From: Candidatus Kapaibacterium sp.
GTDB lineage: Bacteria > Patescibacteriota > Patescibacteriia > UBA9934
Assembly (NCBI GenBank): GCA_044350705.1
Contig: JBILHA010000001.1
Coordinates: forward strand, 1-47,808
Direction of reading: 5' to 3'
DNA length: 47,808 nt
Notes under the pieces: generated by a model
Told to the model about the DNA's origin: nothing
Database searches by the model: none
What the model saw: only the letters and a program-made list of their open reading frames with translations
Shown here: positions 11,998-27,939 of the stretch, one piece after another
Layout of the letters: every line of letters begins with the position of its first letter
How positions within the stretch are numbered: the first letter of the stretch is position 1
Position numbers and translations under genes: made by a program

Positions 11998-13494
<1,497 letters not shown>

Positions 13495-14757: not shown

Positions 14758-14832
14758 TGGTGCCGAGAGCCAGGATCGAACTGGCGACACGAGGTTCTTC
14801 AGACCTCTGCTCTACCACTGAGCTACCTCGGC
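14758..14832 (-). tRNA. tRNA-Phe (GAA), CCA encoded.
   Basis: The reverse complement is GCCGAGGTAGCTCAGTGGTAGAGCAGAGGTCTGAAGAACCTCGTGTCGCCAGTTCGATCCTGGCTCTCGGCACCA, with anticodon loop CT-GAA-GA. Confidence 0.95.
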
Positions 14833-14985
14833 TTACAAATTTGCTACCCAAGTTTGCAAACTGCTGTGTTGAAAGAACTGGGCTCGGCCTCAACGTACAT
14901 TTTGGGTACGTATCGGCCTGCGCCGTTCTTTCTCCTTGCATTTTGCAAACTTAGTAGCAAATTTTCACTCATCGCTGGAAATCAC

Positions 14986-15062
14986 TGGTGGGCGTGCCTG
15001 GACTCGAACCAGGGACCTCAGTCTTATCAGGACTGCGCTCTAACCACCTGAGCTACACGCCC
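14986..15062 (-). tRNA. tRNA-Ile (GAU), CCA encoded.
   Basis: The reverse complement is GGGCGTGTAGCTCAGGTGGTTAGAGCGCAGTCCTGATAAGACTGAGGTCCCTGGTTCGAGTCCAGGCACGCCCACCA, with anticodon loop CT-GAT-AA. Confidence 0.95.
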
Positions 15063-15149
15063 AAAATTGGGCCTGCTTATGGTAATACGGATGAGGGGGA
15101 GCGTCAAGAAATGCAAAGGGTATCTTTTTTGGGAAAATACGCAGCGAAA

Positions 15150-15183
15150 CAAAAAAGAATTAGGGAAAATCCTAATTCTTTTT
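15150..15183 (-). terminator. Hairpin with A and T runs at the 3' side of tRNA-Pro.
   Basis: AAAAAGAATTAGG-gaaaat-CCTAATTCTTTTT. Confidence 0.6.
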
Positions 15184-15261
15184 TGGTCGGGACGACAGGG
15201 CTCGAACCTGCGACCTCGTGGTCCCAAACCACGCGCTCTAAGCCTACTGAGCTACATCCCG
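15184..15261 (-). tRNA. tRNA-Pro (UGG), CCA encoded.
   Basis: The reverse complement is CGGGATGTAGCTCAGTAGGCTTAGAGCGCGTGGTTTGGGACCACGAGGTCGCAGGTTCGAGCCCTGTCGTCCCGACCA, with anticodon loop TT-TGG-GA. Confidence 0.93.
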
Positions 15262-25882: not shown

Positions 25883-26950
25883 TTGTTATGCTCTTTTTAT
25901 ATGGCCAACTCATCCCATACTTTTTCTAAAGATCTTCTTGCTCGCTGGTTCTTTTTGCTTCTTGCGGGCGTTGTTCTGTATCTTTTTTATCGTCTCGTGG
26001 AACCATTTTTGCTTACCGTTCTTACTGCGGCGATGATTGCCATTCTTGTTACTCCTCTTGAAAAGTGGTTGCGTGTTCGTTTGCACAGTCGTCGCATTTC
26101 TACCGTTATCGTTCTTTTGGGCGTATTTCTGCTTTTGGTAGGCCCACTCACTGCGGCGGGTGTTTTGCTCGTCCGTCAGGGAAGTGAGCTTGTGCAGTGG
26201 GTTTTGGAAAATCCTGAGCATATTCAAGAGATTGCTCGGGGAACCCATCCTTTTTTCTCTTTTCTTCCCGTGCAGGTCCGTGAGCTTTTTACTTCTTTTG
26301 ATCTTACTTCTTTGGCACAAACGGCTTCGGATTGGGCACGGACGCATGGTGCGCGTCTTTTTTCTTCAGGAGCTGAACTCGTGTTTAAGACGTTTATTTT
26401 CTTTATTTGCTTGTATTTCTTTTTGTCTGAGCGAGAACAGATTCTTAAAGAGGCAATGGCGCTTAGTCCGCTTAAAGATTCGCTCGATAAGAATATTACG
26501 AAGCGTATTGTTGACACGGTGCGCGGAGTAGTATTCGGTTCTCTCATTATCGCTGCCATACAAAGTATTTTAGCGGCAATTGGATTTACGATTTTCGGTG
26601 TACCGGGAGCATTTATTTGGGCGGCGTGTGTGCTTATCGCTGCACAGGTTCCTATGCTTGGAACGTCGGTGATTATGATTCCGGCAGTTCTTTATCTTTT
26701 TATTACTGGCGAAACGGGATCGGCGATTGGTCTTGCTCTATGGGCGGGGGTTGCTGTTGGTCTTGTCGATAATCTTCTCCAGCCATTTATTGTAGGAGGA
26801 AGAACGCATATGCATGCACTCCTTATTCTTCTTTCCATTTTGGGGGGATTGGAATTTTTTGGACCGATTGGATTTATTCTTGGGCCAACTATTCTTGCCG
26901 CTCTTCTTGTTATTTTAGAAATGTATAAGGGAGGCTATTTAGAGCGGTAG
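25883..26950 (+). CDS. AI-2E family transporter (PerM/UPF0118-like permease).
   Basis: Polytopic protein with the pattern typical of the family (LVEPFLLTVLTAAMIAILVTPL...; C-terminal GGLEFFGPIGFILGP). An alternative start lies at 25901. Confidence 0.7.
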   Translation: MLCSFYMANSSHTFSKDLLARWFFLLLAGVVLYLFYRLVEPFLLTVLTAAMIAILVTPLEKWLRVRLHSRRISTVIVLLGVFLLLVGPLTAAGVLLVRQGSELVQWVLENPEHIQEIARGTHPFFSFLPVQVRELFTSFDLTSLAQTASDWARTHGARLFSSGAELVFKTFIFFICLYFFLSEREQILKEAMALSPLKDSLDKNITKRIVDTVRGVVFGSLIIAAIQSILAAIGFTIFGVPGAFIWAACVLIAAQVPMLGTSVIMIPAVLYLFITGETGSAIGLALWAGVAVGLVDNLLQPFIVGGRTHMHALLILLSILGGLEFFGPIGFILGPTILAALLVILEMYKGGYLER

Positions 26951-27076
26951 CTTTGAAAAAGCATGGGGTTCCTGTGCCGTCTTCCTTTTAAATTTCAAAT
27001 CATTTGTTACATTTGCTCAGGTTATTCGTGATCCTTCTTATTCGTAGGCTTTTTCTGATGTGATGGTAGAGTACTC

Positions 27077-27105
27077 TTGCCTCATTTTGTGAGATCTGGT
27101 ATCTT
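27077..27105 (+). promoter_or_regulatory. Candidate promoter of the tRNA-Glu transcription unit.
   Basis: TTGCCT (27077-27082), N17 ending in TGG, TATCTT (27100-27105). Confidence 0.4.
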
Positions 27106-27118
27106 GGTGCCCGCAAGG

Positions 27119-27226
27119 GGCTCCATCGTCTATCGGTTAGTCCGGCAACGTCCGCAAGGATTTTGTAGGCGGACGGCCGGATCCGGCCTTCGGTGAAACT
27201 TTATGTACCGAAGTAGCCGGAGACAC
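27119..27226 (+). pseudogene. Split 5' fragment of tRNA-Glu (27 nt) interrupted by an 81-nt structured insert.
   Basis: 27119-27140 is identical to 27254-27275, and 27222-27226 (GACAC) is identical to 27276-27280. The insert 27141-27221 has TCCGGC/GCCGGA ends and three internal hairpins. No T-arm or 3' acceptor strand follows. Confidence 0.6.
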
Positions 27227-27253
27227 AGATTTTATACGATGTGACTTCAGCTT

Positions 27254-27328
27254 GGCTCCATCGTCTATCGGTTAGGACACGGGCTTTTCAAGCCTGTAAG
27301 CCGGGTTCGACTCCCGGTGGAGTCACCA
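27254..27328 (+). tRNA. tRNA-Glu (UUC), CCA encoded.
   Basis: GGCTCCATCGTCTATCGGTTAGGACACGGGCTTTTCAAGCCTGTAAGCCGGGTTCGACTCCCGGTGGAGTCACCA, with anticodon loop TT-TTC-AA. Confidence 0.93.
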
Positions 27329-27330
27329 CA

Positions 27331-27366
27331 AAAAGACCTCTCATCATGAGAGGTCTTTTTGTTTTT
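27331..27366. terminator. Bidirectional terminator shared by tRNA-Glu (+) and the SOD gene (-).
   Basis: AAAAGACCTCTCA-tca-TGAGAGGTCTTTT, followed by TGTTTTTTT. Confidence 0.75.
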
Positions 27367-27939
27367 TTATTTGAAGCGCTTCGTAATAATTTCCCAATTG
27401 AGGTTTTGGAAAAATGCGTTGATGTACTCACTGCGTTGTGCGGGAAGGTAATCTACCATGAAGGCGTGTTCCCAGACGTCCATTGCAAGAAGTACGGGGA
27501 GGCCGCCGAGGTGGCCAAGTTCGTGATCGCTTACCCAGACATTGTGGAGCGTATTTGCTTTTGGATCGTGTACGAGAAGTACCCATCCGATGCCTCGCAT
27601 GACGCCCATGGCTTGAAATTCTGCTTTCCAGGCGTCAACAGAACCCCAGCGACGGGTAATTGCATCTGCGAGCGCACTGCTTGCGATTTCTCCATTTCCT
27701 CCGAGAGATTCGAAGTAGAGTTCGTGGAGACGCATTCCGTTGAATTCGAATCCGAACCGACGAGTGATTTCAGACAGTGCTATTGCGTGTGTTTCGGAAT
27801 CTTTTTTGTACTCAGCAATTTTCGCAAGCATTGCGTTCGTATTTTTTACATAGCCTGCATACAGCTTGAGGTGTACCTCGAGCTGTTTTTGAGATATACC
27901 GGTTACGTTTTCGAGATTGAAGGATTGTTCTGAGTACAT
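27367..27939 (-). CDS. Fe/Mn-family superoxide dismutase.
   Basis: LEVHLKLYAGYV, FNGMRLHELYF and the C-terminal LAMDVWEHAFMVDY signature; 190 aa. Confidence 0.85.
   Translation of the reverse strand: MYSEQSFNLENVTGISQKQLEVHLKLYAGYVKNTNAMLAKIAEYKKDSETHAIALSEITRRFGFEFNGMRLHELYFESLGGNGEIASSALADAITRRWGSVDAWKAEFQAMGVMRGIGWVLLVHDPKANTLHNVWVSDHELGHLGGLPVLLAMDVWEHAFMVDYLPAQRSEYINAFFQNLNWEIITKRFK

What the first reader, a model, noticed from the sequence alone, without database searches (positions are those of the whole stretch)
27077..27367. Split duplicate of the tRNA-Glu 5' region carrying an 81-nt four-way-junction insert, at the start of the tRNA-Glu transcript
The intact tRNA-Glu(UUC) gene spans 27254-27328. 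A perfect copy of its first 22 nt lies 135 nt upstream (27119-27140). That copy is broken by an 81-nt insert (27141-27221) and then resumes with GACAC (27222-27226, equal to 27276-27280). Together these give 27 of 27 nt of the tRNA 5' region, split inside the 3' strand of the D-stem.

The insert is bounded by inverted hexamers TCCGGC (27141-27146) and GCCGGA (27216-27221). These close a junction of three hairpins: CGTCCGC-N13-GCGGACG (27149-27175), the palindrome GCCGGATCCGGC (27176-27187) and CTTCGGT-N12-ACCGAAG (27188-27213).

After GACAC the similarity to the tRNA decays. No T-arm or 3' acceptor strand follows, so this copy cannot yield a tRNA on its own. A promoter-like element (TTGCCT, N17, TGG-TATCTT, 27077-27105) would place the fragment at the very 5' end of the primary transcript, and a strong terminator follows the intact tRNA.

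Possible explanations are a decayed tRNA duplicate invaded by a small structured intron-like or MITE-like insertion, a scar of site-specific integration into the tRNA 5' half, or a functional structured leader or decoy. Non-canonical tRNA insertions at D-arm positions are established in some Archaea. I know of no bacterial precedent, which is why I rank this highest.
Basis: partly seen in the sequence, partly recalled or inferred. Interest (0 to 1): 0.7.

Follow-up and report, generated by a model that had tools for sequence, protein, structure and literature searches.

The report
Relic nuclease cassette inside tRNA-Glu gene
The split tRNA-Glu fragment with its 81-base hairpin insert is the gene-less leftover of a small selfish nuclease cassette that invades the front end of tRNA genes in ultra-small (Patescibacteria) bacteria while keeping a working tRNA copy, a cassette type I could not find described in the literature.

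Summary
The sequence facts are correct: a perfect copy of tRNA-Glu nt 1-22, an 81-nt GC-rich insert, GACAC (nt 23-27), a 27-nt spacer, then the intact tRNA-Glu(UUC).

Four homologous inserts covary as two tandem hairpins, not a four-way junction.

- **Empty sites.** Two relatives carry the same promoter and leader directly against an intact tRNA-Glu, so about 135 nt were inserted in this lineage.
- **Occupied sites.** An orthologous locus (L026) and L034 have the same fragment, hairpin module and GACAC, but a ~90-aa GIY-YIG nuclease gene (UPF0213/Slx1-like) where the window has 27 nt. That spacer reads ATG-TGA, which I take to be a collapsed ORF.
- **Family.** The architecture recurs at tRNA-Glu(CUC), tRNA-Ser and tRNA-Gln genes: old tRNA 5' fragment split in the D-arm by a GC-rich hairpin module, then a GIY-YIG ORF, then an intact tRNA. 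Many homologues have ends that are translated tRNA sequence.
- **Module.** It lies inverted in L026 and is not dispersed elsewhere.

Verdict: an ORF-less relic of a homing-endonuclease-like cassette, now only a transcribed 5' leader. The hairpin's role is unknown. This is a new variant of a known kind.

The parts
25883..26950 (+). Upstream flanking gene, an AI-2E/PerM-type permease. It serves as the synteny anchor.
   Evidence: ORF and translation. Pfam AI-2E_transport is assigned to the same gene in L008. The orthologue stands in the same position in L026 and L011.
27077..27105 (+). Ancestral tRNA-Glu promoter: TTGCCT, 17 nt, TATCTT with an upstream TGG.
   Evidence: TTGYYN-N17-GGTATCTT is conserved in L026, L034, L010 and L011. 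In L010 and L011 it lies 11 nt from an intact tRNA-Glu. The consensus scan did not flag it.
27106..27118 (+). Original tRNA leader (GGTGCCCGCAAGG).
   Evidence: The same GGTGCCCGCAA or GGTGCCCGCGA leader precedes the intact tRNA in L011 and L010 and precedes the fragment in L026.
27119..27140 (+). Displaced 5' fragment of the original tRNA-Glu gene: nt 1-22, i.e. the acceptor 5' strand, the D-stem 5' strand, the D-loop and G22.
   Evidence: Exact 22-nt repeat of 27254-27275. The same fragment stands in the same place in L026, L034 and L027.
27141..27181 (+). Hairpin A of the GC-rich module. Closing stem 27141-27146 with 27176-27181; inner stem 27149-27155 with 27169-27175.
   Evidence: Fold. 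Compensatory changes occur at the closing stem and at the 7th inner pair across four loci.
27182..27221 (+). Hairpin B of the GC-rich module. Closing stem 27182-27187 with 27216-27221; inner stem 27188-27194 with 27207-27213.
   Evidence: Fold. Compensatory changes are T-A to C-G in the closing stem (L027) and T-A versus C-G at the 7th inner pair.
27222..27226 (+). GACAC, tRNA-Glu nt 23-27. This is the end of the displaced tRNA fragment.
   Evidence: Equal to 27276-27280. The same 5 nt follow the module in L026 and L034. Longer continuations to nt 26-39 occur in L030, L035, L037 and L033.
27227..27253 (+). Spacer, read as a relic of the nuclease gene: 5'-UTR remnant AGATTTTATACG, ATG (27239-27241) directly followed by TGA (27242-27244), then a 9-nt spacer.
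   Evidence: In L026 and L034 the same interval holds a 91-aa and an 80-aa GIY-YIG ORF. The collapsed-ORF reading is an inference from position, not from significant sequence similarity.
27254..27328 (+). Intact, functional-looking tRNA-Glu(UUC) with encoded CCA.
   Evidence: ARAGORN; Rfam RF00005 at 56.1 bits.
27328..27362 (+). Intrinsic terminator: a 16-bp stem followed by a T-run. It is shared with the convergent SOD gene.
   Evidence: (I1).
27367..27939 (-). Downstream flanking gene, an Fe/Mn superoxide dismutase. It serves as the synteny anchor.
   Evidence: Translation; Pfam Sod_Fe_C; homologues.

Best explanation
The feature is the ORF-less remnant of a small selfish cassette that inserts into the 5' part of tRNA genes in Patescibacteria.

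**Intact cassette.** It has this order: host tRNA promoter and leader; the displaced tRNA 5' fragment (nt 1 to about 22-39), split in its D-arm by a GC-rich hairpin module; a short UTR; an 80-100-aa stand-alone GIY-YIG nuclease gene of the UPF0213/Slx1-like type; then a complete tRNA whose 5' part was brought in or duplicated with the cassette. The host therefore keeps a working tRNA.

**The window.** The nuclease gene has been lost and only ATG-TGA remains. What is left is the fragment (27119-27140), the two-hairpin module (27141-27221), GACAC and a 27-nt spacer.

**Shown.**
- The insertion itself, by comparison with empty-site relatives.
- The orthologous ORF-bearing locus.
- Recurrence of the architecture at four tRNA species.
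- Selection for the hairpins, through compensatory changes.
- Patchy distribution among close relatives.

**Inferred.**
- The cassette spreads like a free-standing homing-endonuclease gene: the nuclease breaks an unoccupied tRNA gene and repair copies the cassette.
- The cassette then degenerates, as in the classical homing cycle.
- In the window the 135 nt are now only part of a roughly 140-nt 5' leader, transcribed from the old promoter and removed when RNase P matures the tRNA.
- The hairpin module may hold down translation of the nuclease, because its 3' closing stem overlaps the only Shine-Dalgarno-like GGAG or GGGGG. Alternatively it may be a DNA structure the nuclease needs. This last point is the weakest.
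For: **Empty sites.** L011 and L010 (SOD 85% identical to the window's) have TTGCCG or TTGCTG, N17, GGTATCTT, then GGTGCCCGCAA or GGTGCCCGCGA directly followed by an intact tRNA-Glu.

**Orthologous occupied site.** L026 has permease, promoter, 22-nt fragment, 81-nt module, GACAC, a GIY-YIG ORF (Pfam PF01541, E = 3.6e-10), tRNA-Glu and SOD.

**Further occupied sites.**
- L034: the same architecture, with a compensatory TCTGGC/GCCAGA closing stem.
- tRNA-Glu(CUC): L027, L035, L037.
- tRNA-Glu, contig ends inside the tRNA: L030.
- tRNA-Ser(GCU): L031, L032.
- tRNA-Gln(CUG): L033.

**Protein evidence.**
- 30 of 272 homologues end in ...APSSNG or ...G[PS]IV, which are translated tRNA-Glu/Gln 5' ends.
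- Many others carry translated tRNA sequence at either end.
- Several N-terminal extensions translate 'fragment + mini hairpin'.

**Hairpin module.** 104 of 104 cells pair and 4 pairs are changed on both sides, while the loops diverge.

**Module tied to the cassette.** There is no other YCCGGC..GCCGGR hairpin and no GIY-YIG gene elsewhere in the 47.8-kb window or in the control loci.

**Patchy distribution.** L026's SOD is 91% identical to those of the element-free L010 and L011 but only 84% identical to the window's.

**Population.** The window allele is invariant in six lake metagenomes.
Against: - No nuclease gene is present in the window. Its membership rests on position and on the shared fragment, module and GACAC. 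The 27-nt spacer shows no statistically significant similarity to the ORFs.
- The nuclease is only a catalytic domain with no DNA-binding domain. Its nearest relatives are UPF0213 proteins and Slx1, not I-TevI or Seg enzymes. Sequence-specific homing is therefore unproven.
- The restored tRNA still contains the presumed target sequence, so simple homing logic does not explain immunity of the occupied allele.
- The function of the hairpin module is unknown.
- The module is inverted in L026, which no step of the model predicts.
- There are no transcript data.
Confidence: 0.72

Rival explanations
1. The 81-nt insert is an autonomous, MITE-like or REP-like palindromic element. It inserted independently into a dispensable tRNA fragment, and the nuclease cassette is unrelated to it.
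For: - It has perfect 6-bp terminal inverted repeats and precise boundaries with no ambiguity.
- It occurs in both orientations at the same site.
- Its size varies from 30 to 82 nt among loci.
- GC-rich double-hairpin elements are mobile in Allomyces mitochondria (Paquin et al. 2000, cited in PMC4478555; the content is from my own knowledge).
Against: - No second copy exists in the 47.8-kb window, in the control loci, or in viral contigs apart from chance hits in GC-rich DNA.
- The metagenome scan with the conserved core returned only the orthologous tRNA-Glu locus plus two chance hits in 70% GC contigs.
- In every locus examined the module sits in the D-arm of the displaced fragment of a GIY-YIG cassette. 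This holds for unrelated tRNAs whose module sequences are themselves unrelated.
Confidence: 0.1
2. The structure acts at the RNA level. Either it is a selected leader or decoy for tRNA-Glu expression, or the hairpin module is a novel D-arm insertion (intron-like or tolerated) of a tRNA.
For: - The hairpins are kept by compensatory changes, and the one non-Watson-Crick pair is G-U in the sense strand.
- The fragment stays identical to the tRNA.
- L033 holds a full-length tRNA-Gln copy with the module in its D-arm.
- The predicted fold of the primary transcript pairs the old fragment with the tRNA 3' end.
Against: - In the window and five of the other loci the module-bearing copy is truncated at nt 26-39 (further truncated: L027 at nt 22, L032 at nt 20), and an intact tRNA always follows.
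- The module is inverted in L026, so loop sequences are not conserved in the RNA.
- There is no Rfam family, no group I ribozyme, and neither ARAGORN nor Rfam calls the module-bearing copy a tRNA.
- Close relatives do well without the module.
Confidence: 0.1
3. It is an attL/attR-type scar of an integrase-mediated genomic island or prophage that integrated into tRNA-Glu and was later almost completely deleted.
For: A 22-nt direct repeat of tRNA sequence flanks foreign DNA, as at tRNA-targeting islands.
Against: - No integrase or phage genes flank the site. Synteny (permease, tRNA, SOD) is intact.
- The intact homologues of the insertion are only about 350-400 nt and encode a GIY-YIG nuclease, not a recombinase.
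- The target is the 5' half, whereas integrases usually use the 3' half (established knowledge).
- No viral relatives were found.
Confidence: 0.03

Closest known systems
Free-standing GIY-YIG homing endonuclease genes of T4-like phages (Seg family; SegB acts in the tRNA gene region)
   Same: - A small nuclease gene sits between or inside conserved genes without an intron.
- It is patchily present among close relatives.
- It is associated with tRNA genes.
- The host function is kept.

Sources: PMC2988022 and PMC13096335, found; details are from my own knowledge.
   Different: - Seg enzymes have a DNA-binding domain. The proteins here are about 85-aa catalytic domains closest to UPF0213 and Slx1.
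- This cassette sits inside the tRNA gene, with a duplicated 5' segment and a conserved hairpin module.
- The hosts are cellular (Patescibacteria), and no phage copies were found.
Mobile endonuclease ORFs of fungal mitochondria that carry a replacement copy of the displaced gene end (e.g. Allomyces atp6), and the GC-rich double-hairpin elements (DHEs) of the same genomes
   Same: - The logic is the same: nuclease ORF, plus a duplicated gene terminus, plus a leftover pseudo-fragment.
- GC-rich two-hairpin modules of 26-79 bp are associated with mobile DNA.

Sources: Paquin et al. 2000 as cited in PMC4478555; the content is from my own knowledge.
   Different: - There the 3' end of a protein gene is replaced. 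Here it is the 5' end of a tRNA gene.
- DHEs are dispersed in dozens of copies. The module here is found only inside the cassette.
Insertion sequences in rRNA genes of CPR bacteria that encode GIY-YIG proteins
   Same: The same bacterial radiation, the same nuclease superfamily, and insertion into structural RNA genes at stem-loop positions. Those insertions resemble neither group I nor group II introns (PMC11270868).
   Different: - That study covers rRNA genes only and does not mention tRNA (0 occurrences).
- It describes no duplicated gene fragment or hairpin module.
[quoted passage not shown]
Integrative elements that target tRNA genes and carry a replacement tRNA segment in attP
   Same: The insertion leaves a direct repeat of tRNA sequence and an intact tRNA.
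   Different: Those elements use tyrosine integrases, usually target the 3' half and are kilobases long. No recombinase is present here.

Membership tests
Free-standing homing-endonuclease gene (HEG) cassette | Encodes a nuclease of a homing-endonuclease superfamily | tested here: not met
   The window has no ORF, only ATG-TGA at 27239-27244, and tblastn finds no GIY-YIG homologue in the window. The feature is met in the orthologous locus L026 and in L034, L027, L030, L032, L033, L035 and L037 (Pfam PF01541). The window copy is therefore a relic, not a full member.
Free-standing homing-endonuclease gene (HEG) cassette | Presence/absence polymorphism at one precise site among close relatives (occupied and empty alleles) | tested here: met
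   Empty sites are L010 and L011. Occupied sites are the window, L026 and L034. L026 is closer to the empty-site genomes than to the window by SOD identity.
Free-standing homing-endonuclease gene (HEG) cassette | Insertion leaves the host gene functional | tested here: met
   An intact tRNA follows the cassette in seven loci, scoring 56-62 bits on Rfam's tRNA model where it was scored (window, L027, L032-L035). For L026 and L037 the call rests on ARAGORN only. In L030 the contig ends inside the tRNA.
Free-standing homing-endonuclease gene (HEG) cassette | Site-specific cleavage of the unoccupied allele, followed by copying of the cassette by repair | not testable with these tools
   This needs enzyme assays or crosses. 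The nuclease lacks a recognisable DNA-binding domain, which argues for caution.
UPF0213 / YhbQ-type stand-alone GIY-YIG nucleases (Slx1-like URI domain) | An 80-100-aa single GIY-YIG domain with the catalytic Tyr, Tyr, Arg, His and Glu conserved | tested here: met
   This applies to the related loci only. The invariant or nearly invariant residues are Y5, Y16, G18, R26, H30 and E62. The best solved relatives are 1zg2 and 1ywl (UPF0213, E about 1e-9), then Slx1, weakly.
tRNA intron (archaeal bulge-helix-bulge type, or bacterial group I) | The insert lies within an otherwise complete tRNA gene | tested here: not met
   The window copy stops at nt 27, with no anticodon arm, T-arm or 3' acceptor strand. 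One exception elsewhere is the full-length module-bearing tRNA-Gln in L033.
tRNA intron (archaeal bulge-helix-bulge type, or bacterial group I) | Group I ribozyme core or bulge-helix-bulge motif at the junctions | tested here: not met
   No Rfam intron family matches the region even at E up to 10, nor in seven related loci. The module is two plain hairpins. No formal BHB search tool was available.
Dispersed palindromic repeats (MITE, REP/BIME, mitochondrial double-hairpin elements) | Multiple dispersed copies in the genome | tested here: not met
   There is a single copy in 47.8 kb, none in control loci, and only the orthologous locus in the metagenome scan. The rest of the 462-kb contig could not be searched.
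Dispersed palindromic repeats (MITE, REP/BIME, mitochondrial double-hairpin elements) | Terminal inverted repeats and target-site duplication | tested here: inconclusive
   A 6-bp terminal inverted repeat is present. There is no target-site duplication: the flanks are TTAG|...|GACAC.
Integrase-mediated island at a tRNA gene (att scar) | A recombinase gene or island remnants between direct repeats of tRNA sequence | tested here: not met
   Only 113 nt lie between the repeats. The ORF-bearing homologues encode a GIY-YIG nuclease, not an integrase.

The most novel reading that the evidence does not exclude
The hairpin module and the Slx1-like mini-nuclease together form a new kind of structure-guided mobile element.

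In this reading the nuclease has no DNA-binding domain and recognises extruded hairpin or cruciform DNA: the GC-rich module and perhaps the D-arm hairpin of the tRNA gene. That would be comparable to the REP/RAYT and IS200/IS605 hairpin-transposase pairs. The module would then be the element's cis-acting end, and ORF-less copies such as the window's would be non-autonomous derivatives that a copy at another tRNA gene could act on in trans.

A second, bolder branch is that module-bearing full-length tRNAs such as the L033 tRNA-Gln copy are functional. That would mean bacteria tolerate or remove a 36-81-nt D-arm insertion.
Probability: 0.2. Interest if true: 0.85.

Novelty: new variant of a known kind. 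Interest (0 to 1): 0.6.

Why it matters
**tRNA annotation.** The finding explains a class of odd partial tRNA sequences and over-long 'GIY-YIG' ORF calls in Patescibacteria assemblies. Many database proteins of this family have ends that are simply translated tRNA or hairpin sequence.

**Mobile DNA.** It defines a compact selfish cassette of about 350-400 bp that invades an essential single-copy gene without killing the host, and it shows stages expected of a homing cycle: empty, occupied and decayed sites.

**Nuclease biology.** It gives the widespread but functionally obscure UPF0213/YhbQ-type mini GIY-YIG nucleases a concrete, testable genomic role and candidate substrates, namely tRNA-gene D-arm DNA and a conserved hairpin module.

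**The window itself.** The practical message is modest. The tRNA-Glu gene is intact and carries a 135-nt fossil in its leader.

Tried and rejected
- **Rfam.** A gathering-threshold search of the whole window and an E up to 10 search of 26950-27400 gave only the tRNA and noise. The same held for seven related loci.
- **Other copies in the window.** None of either hairpin half at up to 3 mismatches. No other YCCGGC..GCCGGR hairpin. No fragment duplications at the other six tRNAs. No GIY-YIG gene.
- **Promoter scan.** It found nothing. The promoter was rescued by conservation instead.
- **GTDB genome scan with the permease.** It gave only distant relatives (46-61% identity) without synteny.
- **Viral contigs.** The hairpin pattern gave only chance hits in GC-rich contigs. 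The GIY-YIG profile gave no relatives.
- **Metagenome scan.** The window's own JGI contig was not returned, so that collection apparently lacks it.
- **RNA-seq runs.** None holds the locus; they share only about 10% of words, from tRNA sequence.
- **Contigs laid on the window.** No variants, joints or excision forms appeared.
- **Tandem 54-nt duplication followed by decay.** I considered and rejected it. The 27 nt after GACAC match neither the tRNA (11 of 27) nor the leader (11 of 27), both by hand alignment, while nt 1-27 are perfect.
- **Four-way junction.** Rejected on covariation.
- **Literature.** Nine searches found no description of this architecture.
Full report
**1. What is in the window**

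ARAGORN and Rfam place one tRNA-Glu(UUC) at 27254-27328. Its first 22 nt recur exactly at 27119-27140, and no such match occurred in 100 shuffles.

Between the copy and the gene lie three pieces:
- an 81-nt GC-rich insert, 27141-27221;
- GACAC, 27222-27226, equal to tRNA nt 23-27;
- 27 further nt.

The insert folds far better than shuffled sequence. As RNA it gives -42.7 kcal/mol with z = -4.8. As DNA it gives z = -6.4. A 16-bp terminator follows the tRNA.

The flanking genes are an AI-2E-type permease (25883-26950, + strand) and an Fe/Mn superoxide dismutase, SOD (27367-27939, - strand). Permease and SOD homologues identify the organism as a member of the Patescibacteria/CPR near Candidatus Uhrbacteria. 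The same allele, without any variant, occurs in several lake metagenomes.

**2. The insertion is derived**

Two relatives whose SOD is 85% identical, L011 and L010, have the same promoter and leader running straight into an intact tRNA-Glu. The sequence is TTGCCG or TTGCTG, 17 nt, GGTATCTT, then GGTGCCCGCAA or GGTGCCCGCGA. More distant Uhrbacteria, L005 and L007, also have plain tRNA-Glu genes.

In the window lineage 135 nt were inserted into the gene: 113 foreign nt plus a 22-nt repeat.

**3. What was inserted**

A metagenome scan used the core shared by the window and a second contig seen in the same lakes. It returned L024 and L026 from Hainich groundwater. L026 is the orthologous locus, with this order:
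- permease, promoter and leader;
- 22-nt fragment;
- 81-nt module;
- GACAC;
- a 91-aa ORF;
- tRNA-Glu(UUC) and SOD.

The ORF is a GIY-YIG nuclease (Pfam PF01541, E = 3.6e-10). Its stop codon is the TAG of the tRNA D-loop, at tRNA nt 20-22.

L034 shows the same architecture with an 80-aa ORF.

The window's 27-nt spacer occupies the place of these ORFs. It reads AGATTTTATACG-ATG-TGA-CTTCAGCTT, a start codon abutting a stop. I read this as a collapsed ORF. That is an inference from position.

**4. A family, not a one-off**

The same layout occurs at several other tRNA genes. In each case the order is displaced tRNA 5' fragment, a GC-rich hairpin module inside its D-arm, a few more tRNA nucleotides, a GIY-YIG ORF, and an intact tRNA.

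| tRNA | Loci | Module position |
|---|---|---|
| Glu(UUC), 81-82-nt module | window, L026, L034 | 22\|23 |
| Glu(CUC), 79-nt module | L027 | 22\|23 |
| Glu(CUC), 30-nt module | L035, L037 | 21\|22 |
| Glu, contig ends inside the tRNA, 30-nt module | L030 | 21\|22 |
| Ser(GCU) | L031, L032 | 14\|15 |
| Gln(CUG) | L033 | 22\|23 |

L033 additionally holds a full-length tRNA-Gln copy carrying the module. ARAGORN and Rfam do not call it a tRNA.

The protein searches point the same way.
- 2447 representatives match at E up to 1e-3.
- 270 proteins match a clade profile at E up to 1e-10, mostly Patescibacteria.
- 30 of 272 fetched homologues end in ...APSSNG or ...G[PS]IV, which are translated tRNA-Glu/Gln 5' ends.
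- Many others have N- or C-terminal extensions that are plain translations of tRNA genes or of 'fragment + mini hairpin'.

**5. The hairpin module**

On four 79-82-nt homologues (alignment A3), two tandem hairpins pair in 104 of 104 cells. Four pairs are changed on both sides: 3-40, 15-30, 43-82 and 55-68. The loops diverge.

In L026 the module is inverted relative to the tRNA. Hairpin order, bulge side and loop composition all flip.

The 30-36-nt modules are near-palindromes. They can fold either as two mini-hairpins or as one 12-13-bp hairpin.

The module is not dispersed. No further copy exists in the window, in about 150 kb of related loci, or in viral contigs.

**6. Distribution**

By SOD identity L026 groups with the element-free L010 and L011 (91%) and is more distant from the window (84%). 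The cassette was therefore either gained twice or lost precisely once. Recombination between the direct repeats would restore the empty site.

A second contig in the same lake metagenomes has similar depth to the window's contig (14 versus 15.3, and 17 versus 16.5). It matches the L027-type tRNA-Glu(CUC) cassette. The window organism or a co-occurring relative may therefore still carry an intact nuclease copy. I could not verify this.

**7. How it most likely works**

Shown:
- the insertion;
- its recurrent architecture;
- retention of an intact tRNA;
- purifying selection on the hairpin stems;
- patchy distribution;
- ORF loss in the window.

Inferred:
- The cassette behaves like a free-standing homing-endonuclease gene, and the window shows its decayed stage.
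- The tRNA is now transcribed from the old promoter through a leader of about 140 nt that RNase P must remove.
- A thermodynamic fold predicts that the old fragment can compete for the tRNA 3' end, which would be a possible cost to the host.
- The module may occlude the only Shine-Dalgarno-like motif. GGAG or GGGGG lies in or next to its 3' closing stem, 10-20 nt before the ATG, in the tRNA-Glu cassettes inspected: L026, L034, L027, L037, L035 and L030.
- Alternatively the module may be a DNA structure the nuclease needs.

Caveats:
- The nuclease is only a catalytic domain. Its closest solved relatives are the UPF0213 proteins 1zg2 and 1ywl, followed weakly by Slx1.
- The restored tRNA keeps the presumed target sequence, so classical homing is not demonstrated.

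**8. Comparison with what is known**

The logic of nuclease ORF, duplicated gene end and leftover fragment resembles free-standing Seg/Mob genes of T4-like phages (PMC2988022, PMC13096335). It also resembles mobile endonuclease ORFs of fungal mitochondria, where GC-rich double-hairpin elements are mobile too (Paquin et al. 2000, cited in PMC4478555; content from my own knowledge).

In CPR bacteria, GIY-YIG genes have been reported inside non-intron insertions of rRNA genes (PMC11270868). That paper does not mention tRNA.

Nine literature searches found no description of the tRNA cassette with its D-arm hairpin module. Absence from this library is not proof of novelty.

**9. Verdict**

The fold and the favoured interpretation need correction. 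The window locus itself is a fossil. The family it led to is a new variant of a known kind of selfish element and merits a systematic survey and a nuclease assay.

Noticed in passing
L033:437-562 (GCA_020049755.1, JAHZTO010228336.1): A full-length tRNA-Gln(CUG) copy carries a 36-nt hairpin module between nt 22 and 23. It lies directly downstream of an intact tRNA-Gln. About 105-nt direct repeats (leader + nt 1-39 with module) flank the nuclease ORF and the intact tRNA. ARAGORN and Rfam do not call the copy.
   Followed up: partly
L026:1642-1665; L030:2277-2300; L035:1747-1770; L037:1144-1167: The nuclease ORFs run into the tRNA and stop at the TAG (nt 20-22) of the tRNA D-loop. RNase P cleavage at the tRNA 5' end would therefore leave the mRNA without a stop codon. 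That could be a built-in way to keep nuclease levels low. This is speculative.
   Followed up: no
window 27241-27249 and 27318-27326: The spacer just upstream of the tRNA (GTGACTTCA) can pair over 9 nt, with one G-U, with the tRNA 3' acceptor strand plus discriminator. In the whole-transcript fold the old 5' fragment pairs with the tRNA 3' end instead of the genuine 5' strand.
   Followed up: partly
lake metagenome runs X1, X2, X3, X5: A second contig of similar depth carries an L027-like cassette at a tRNA-Glu(CUC) gene, 378 nt from fragment to tRNA. The same genome or a co-occurring relative may therefore hold an intact nuclease copy.
   Followed up: partly
L009 (ERZ28575898 scaffold_2061): In the closest relative found (SOD 93% identical) the 9.8-kb contig ends 5 nt after the SOD stop. 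The assembly breaks exactly at the tRNA-Glu locus, as expected if repeated tRNA or fragment sequence confuses assembly.
   Followed up: no
window 11998-13494 and 14758-15261: The 16S rRNA gene stands alone on the + strand, with no 23S or 5S within the window and no insertion. tRNA-Phe, tRNA-Ile and tRNA-Pro lie just downstream on the opposite strand. This is an unlinked rRNA arrangement.
   Followed up: no
window 27111-27118 and 27152-27159: The octamer CCGCAAGG occurs both in the tRNA leader, where it forms a CCC-GCAA-GGG mini-hairpin ending at tRNA G1, and in hairpin A of the module. This may be chance.
   Followed up: no
proteins P0130, P0174, P0175, P0178, P0238, P0247, P0270 and others: Many database 'GIY-YIG' proteins have long N- or C-terminal extensions that are literal translations of neighbouring tRNA genes (e.g. 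GAIAQLGERLNGIQEVVGSIP). Some are tandem duplicates. This points to systematic gene-calling errors around these cassettes.
   Followed up: partly
whole window: GC skew is positive in every 2-kb bin, so cumulative skew rises monotonically. The window therefore lies within one replichore, with no origin or terminus.
   Followed up: no
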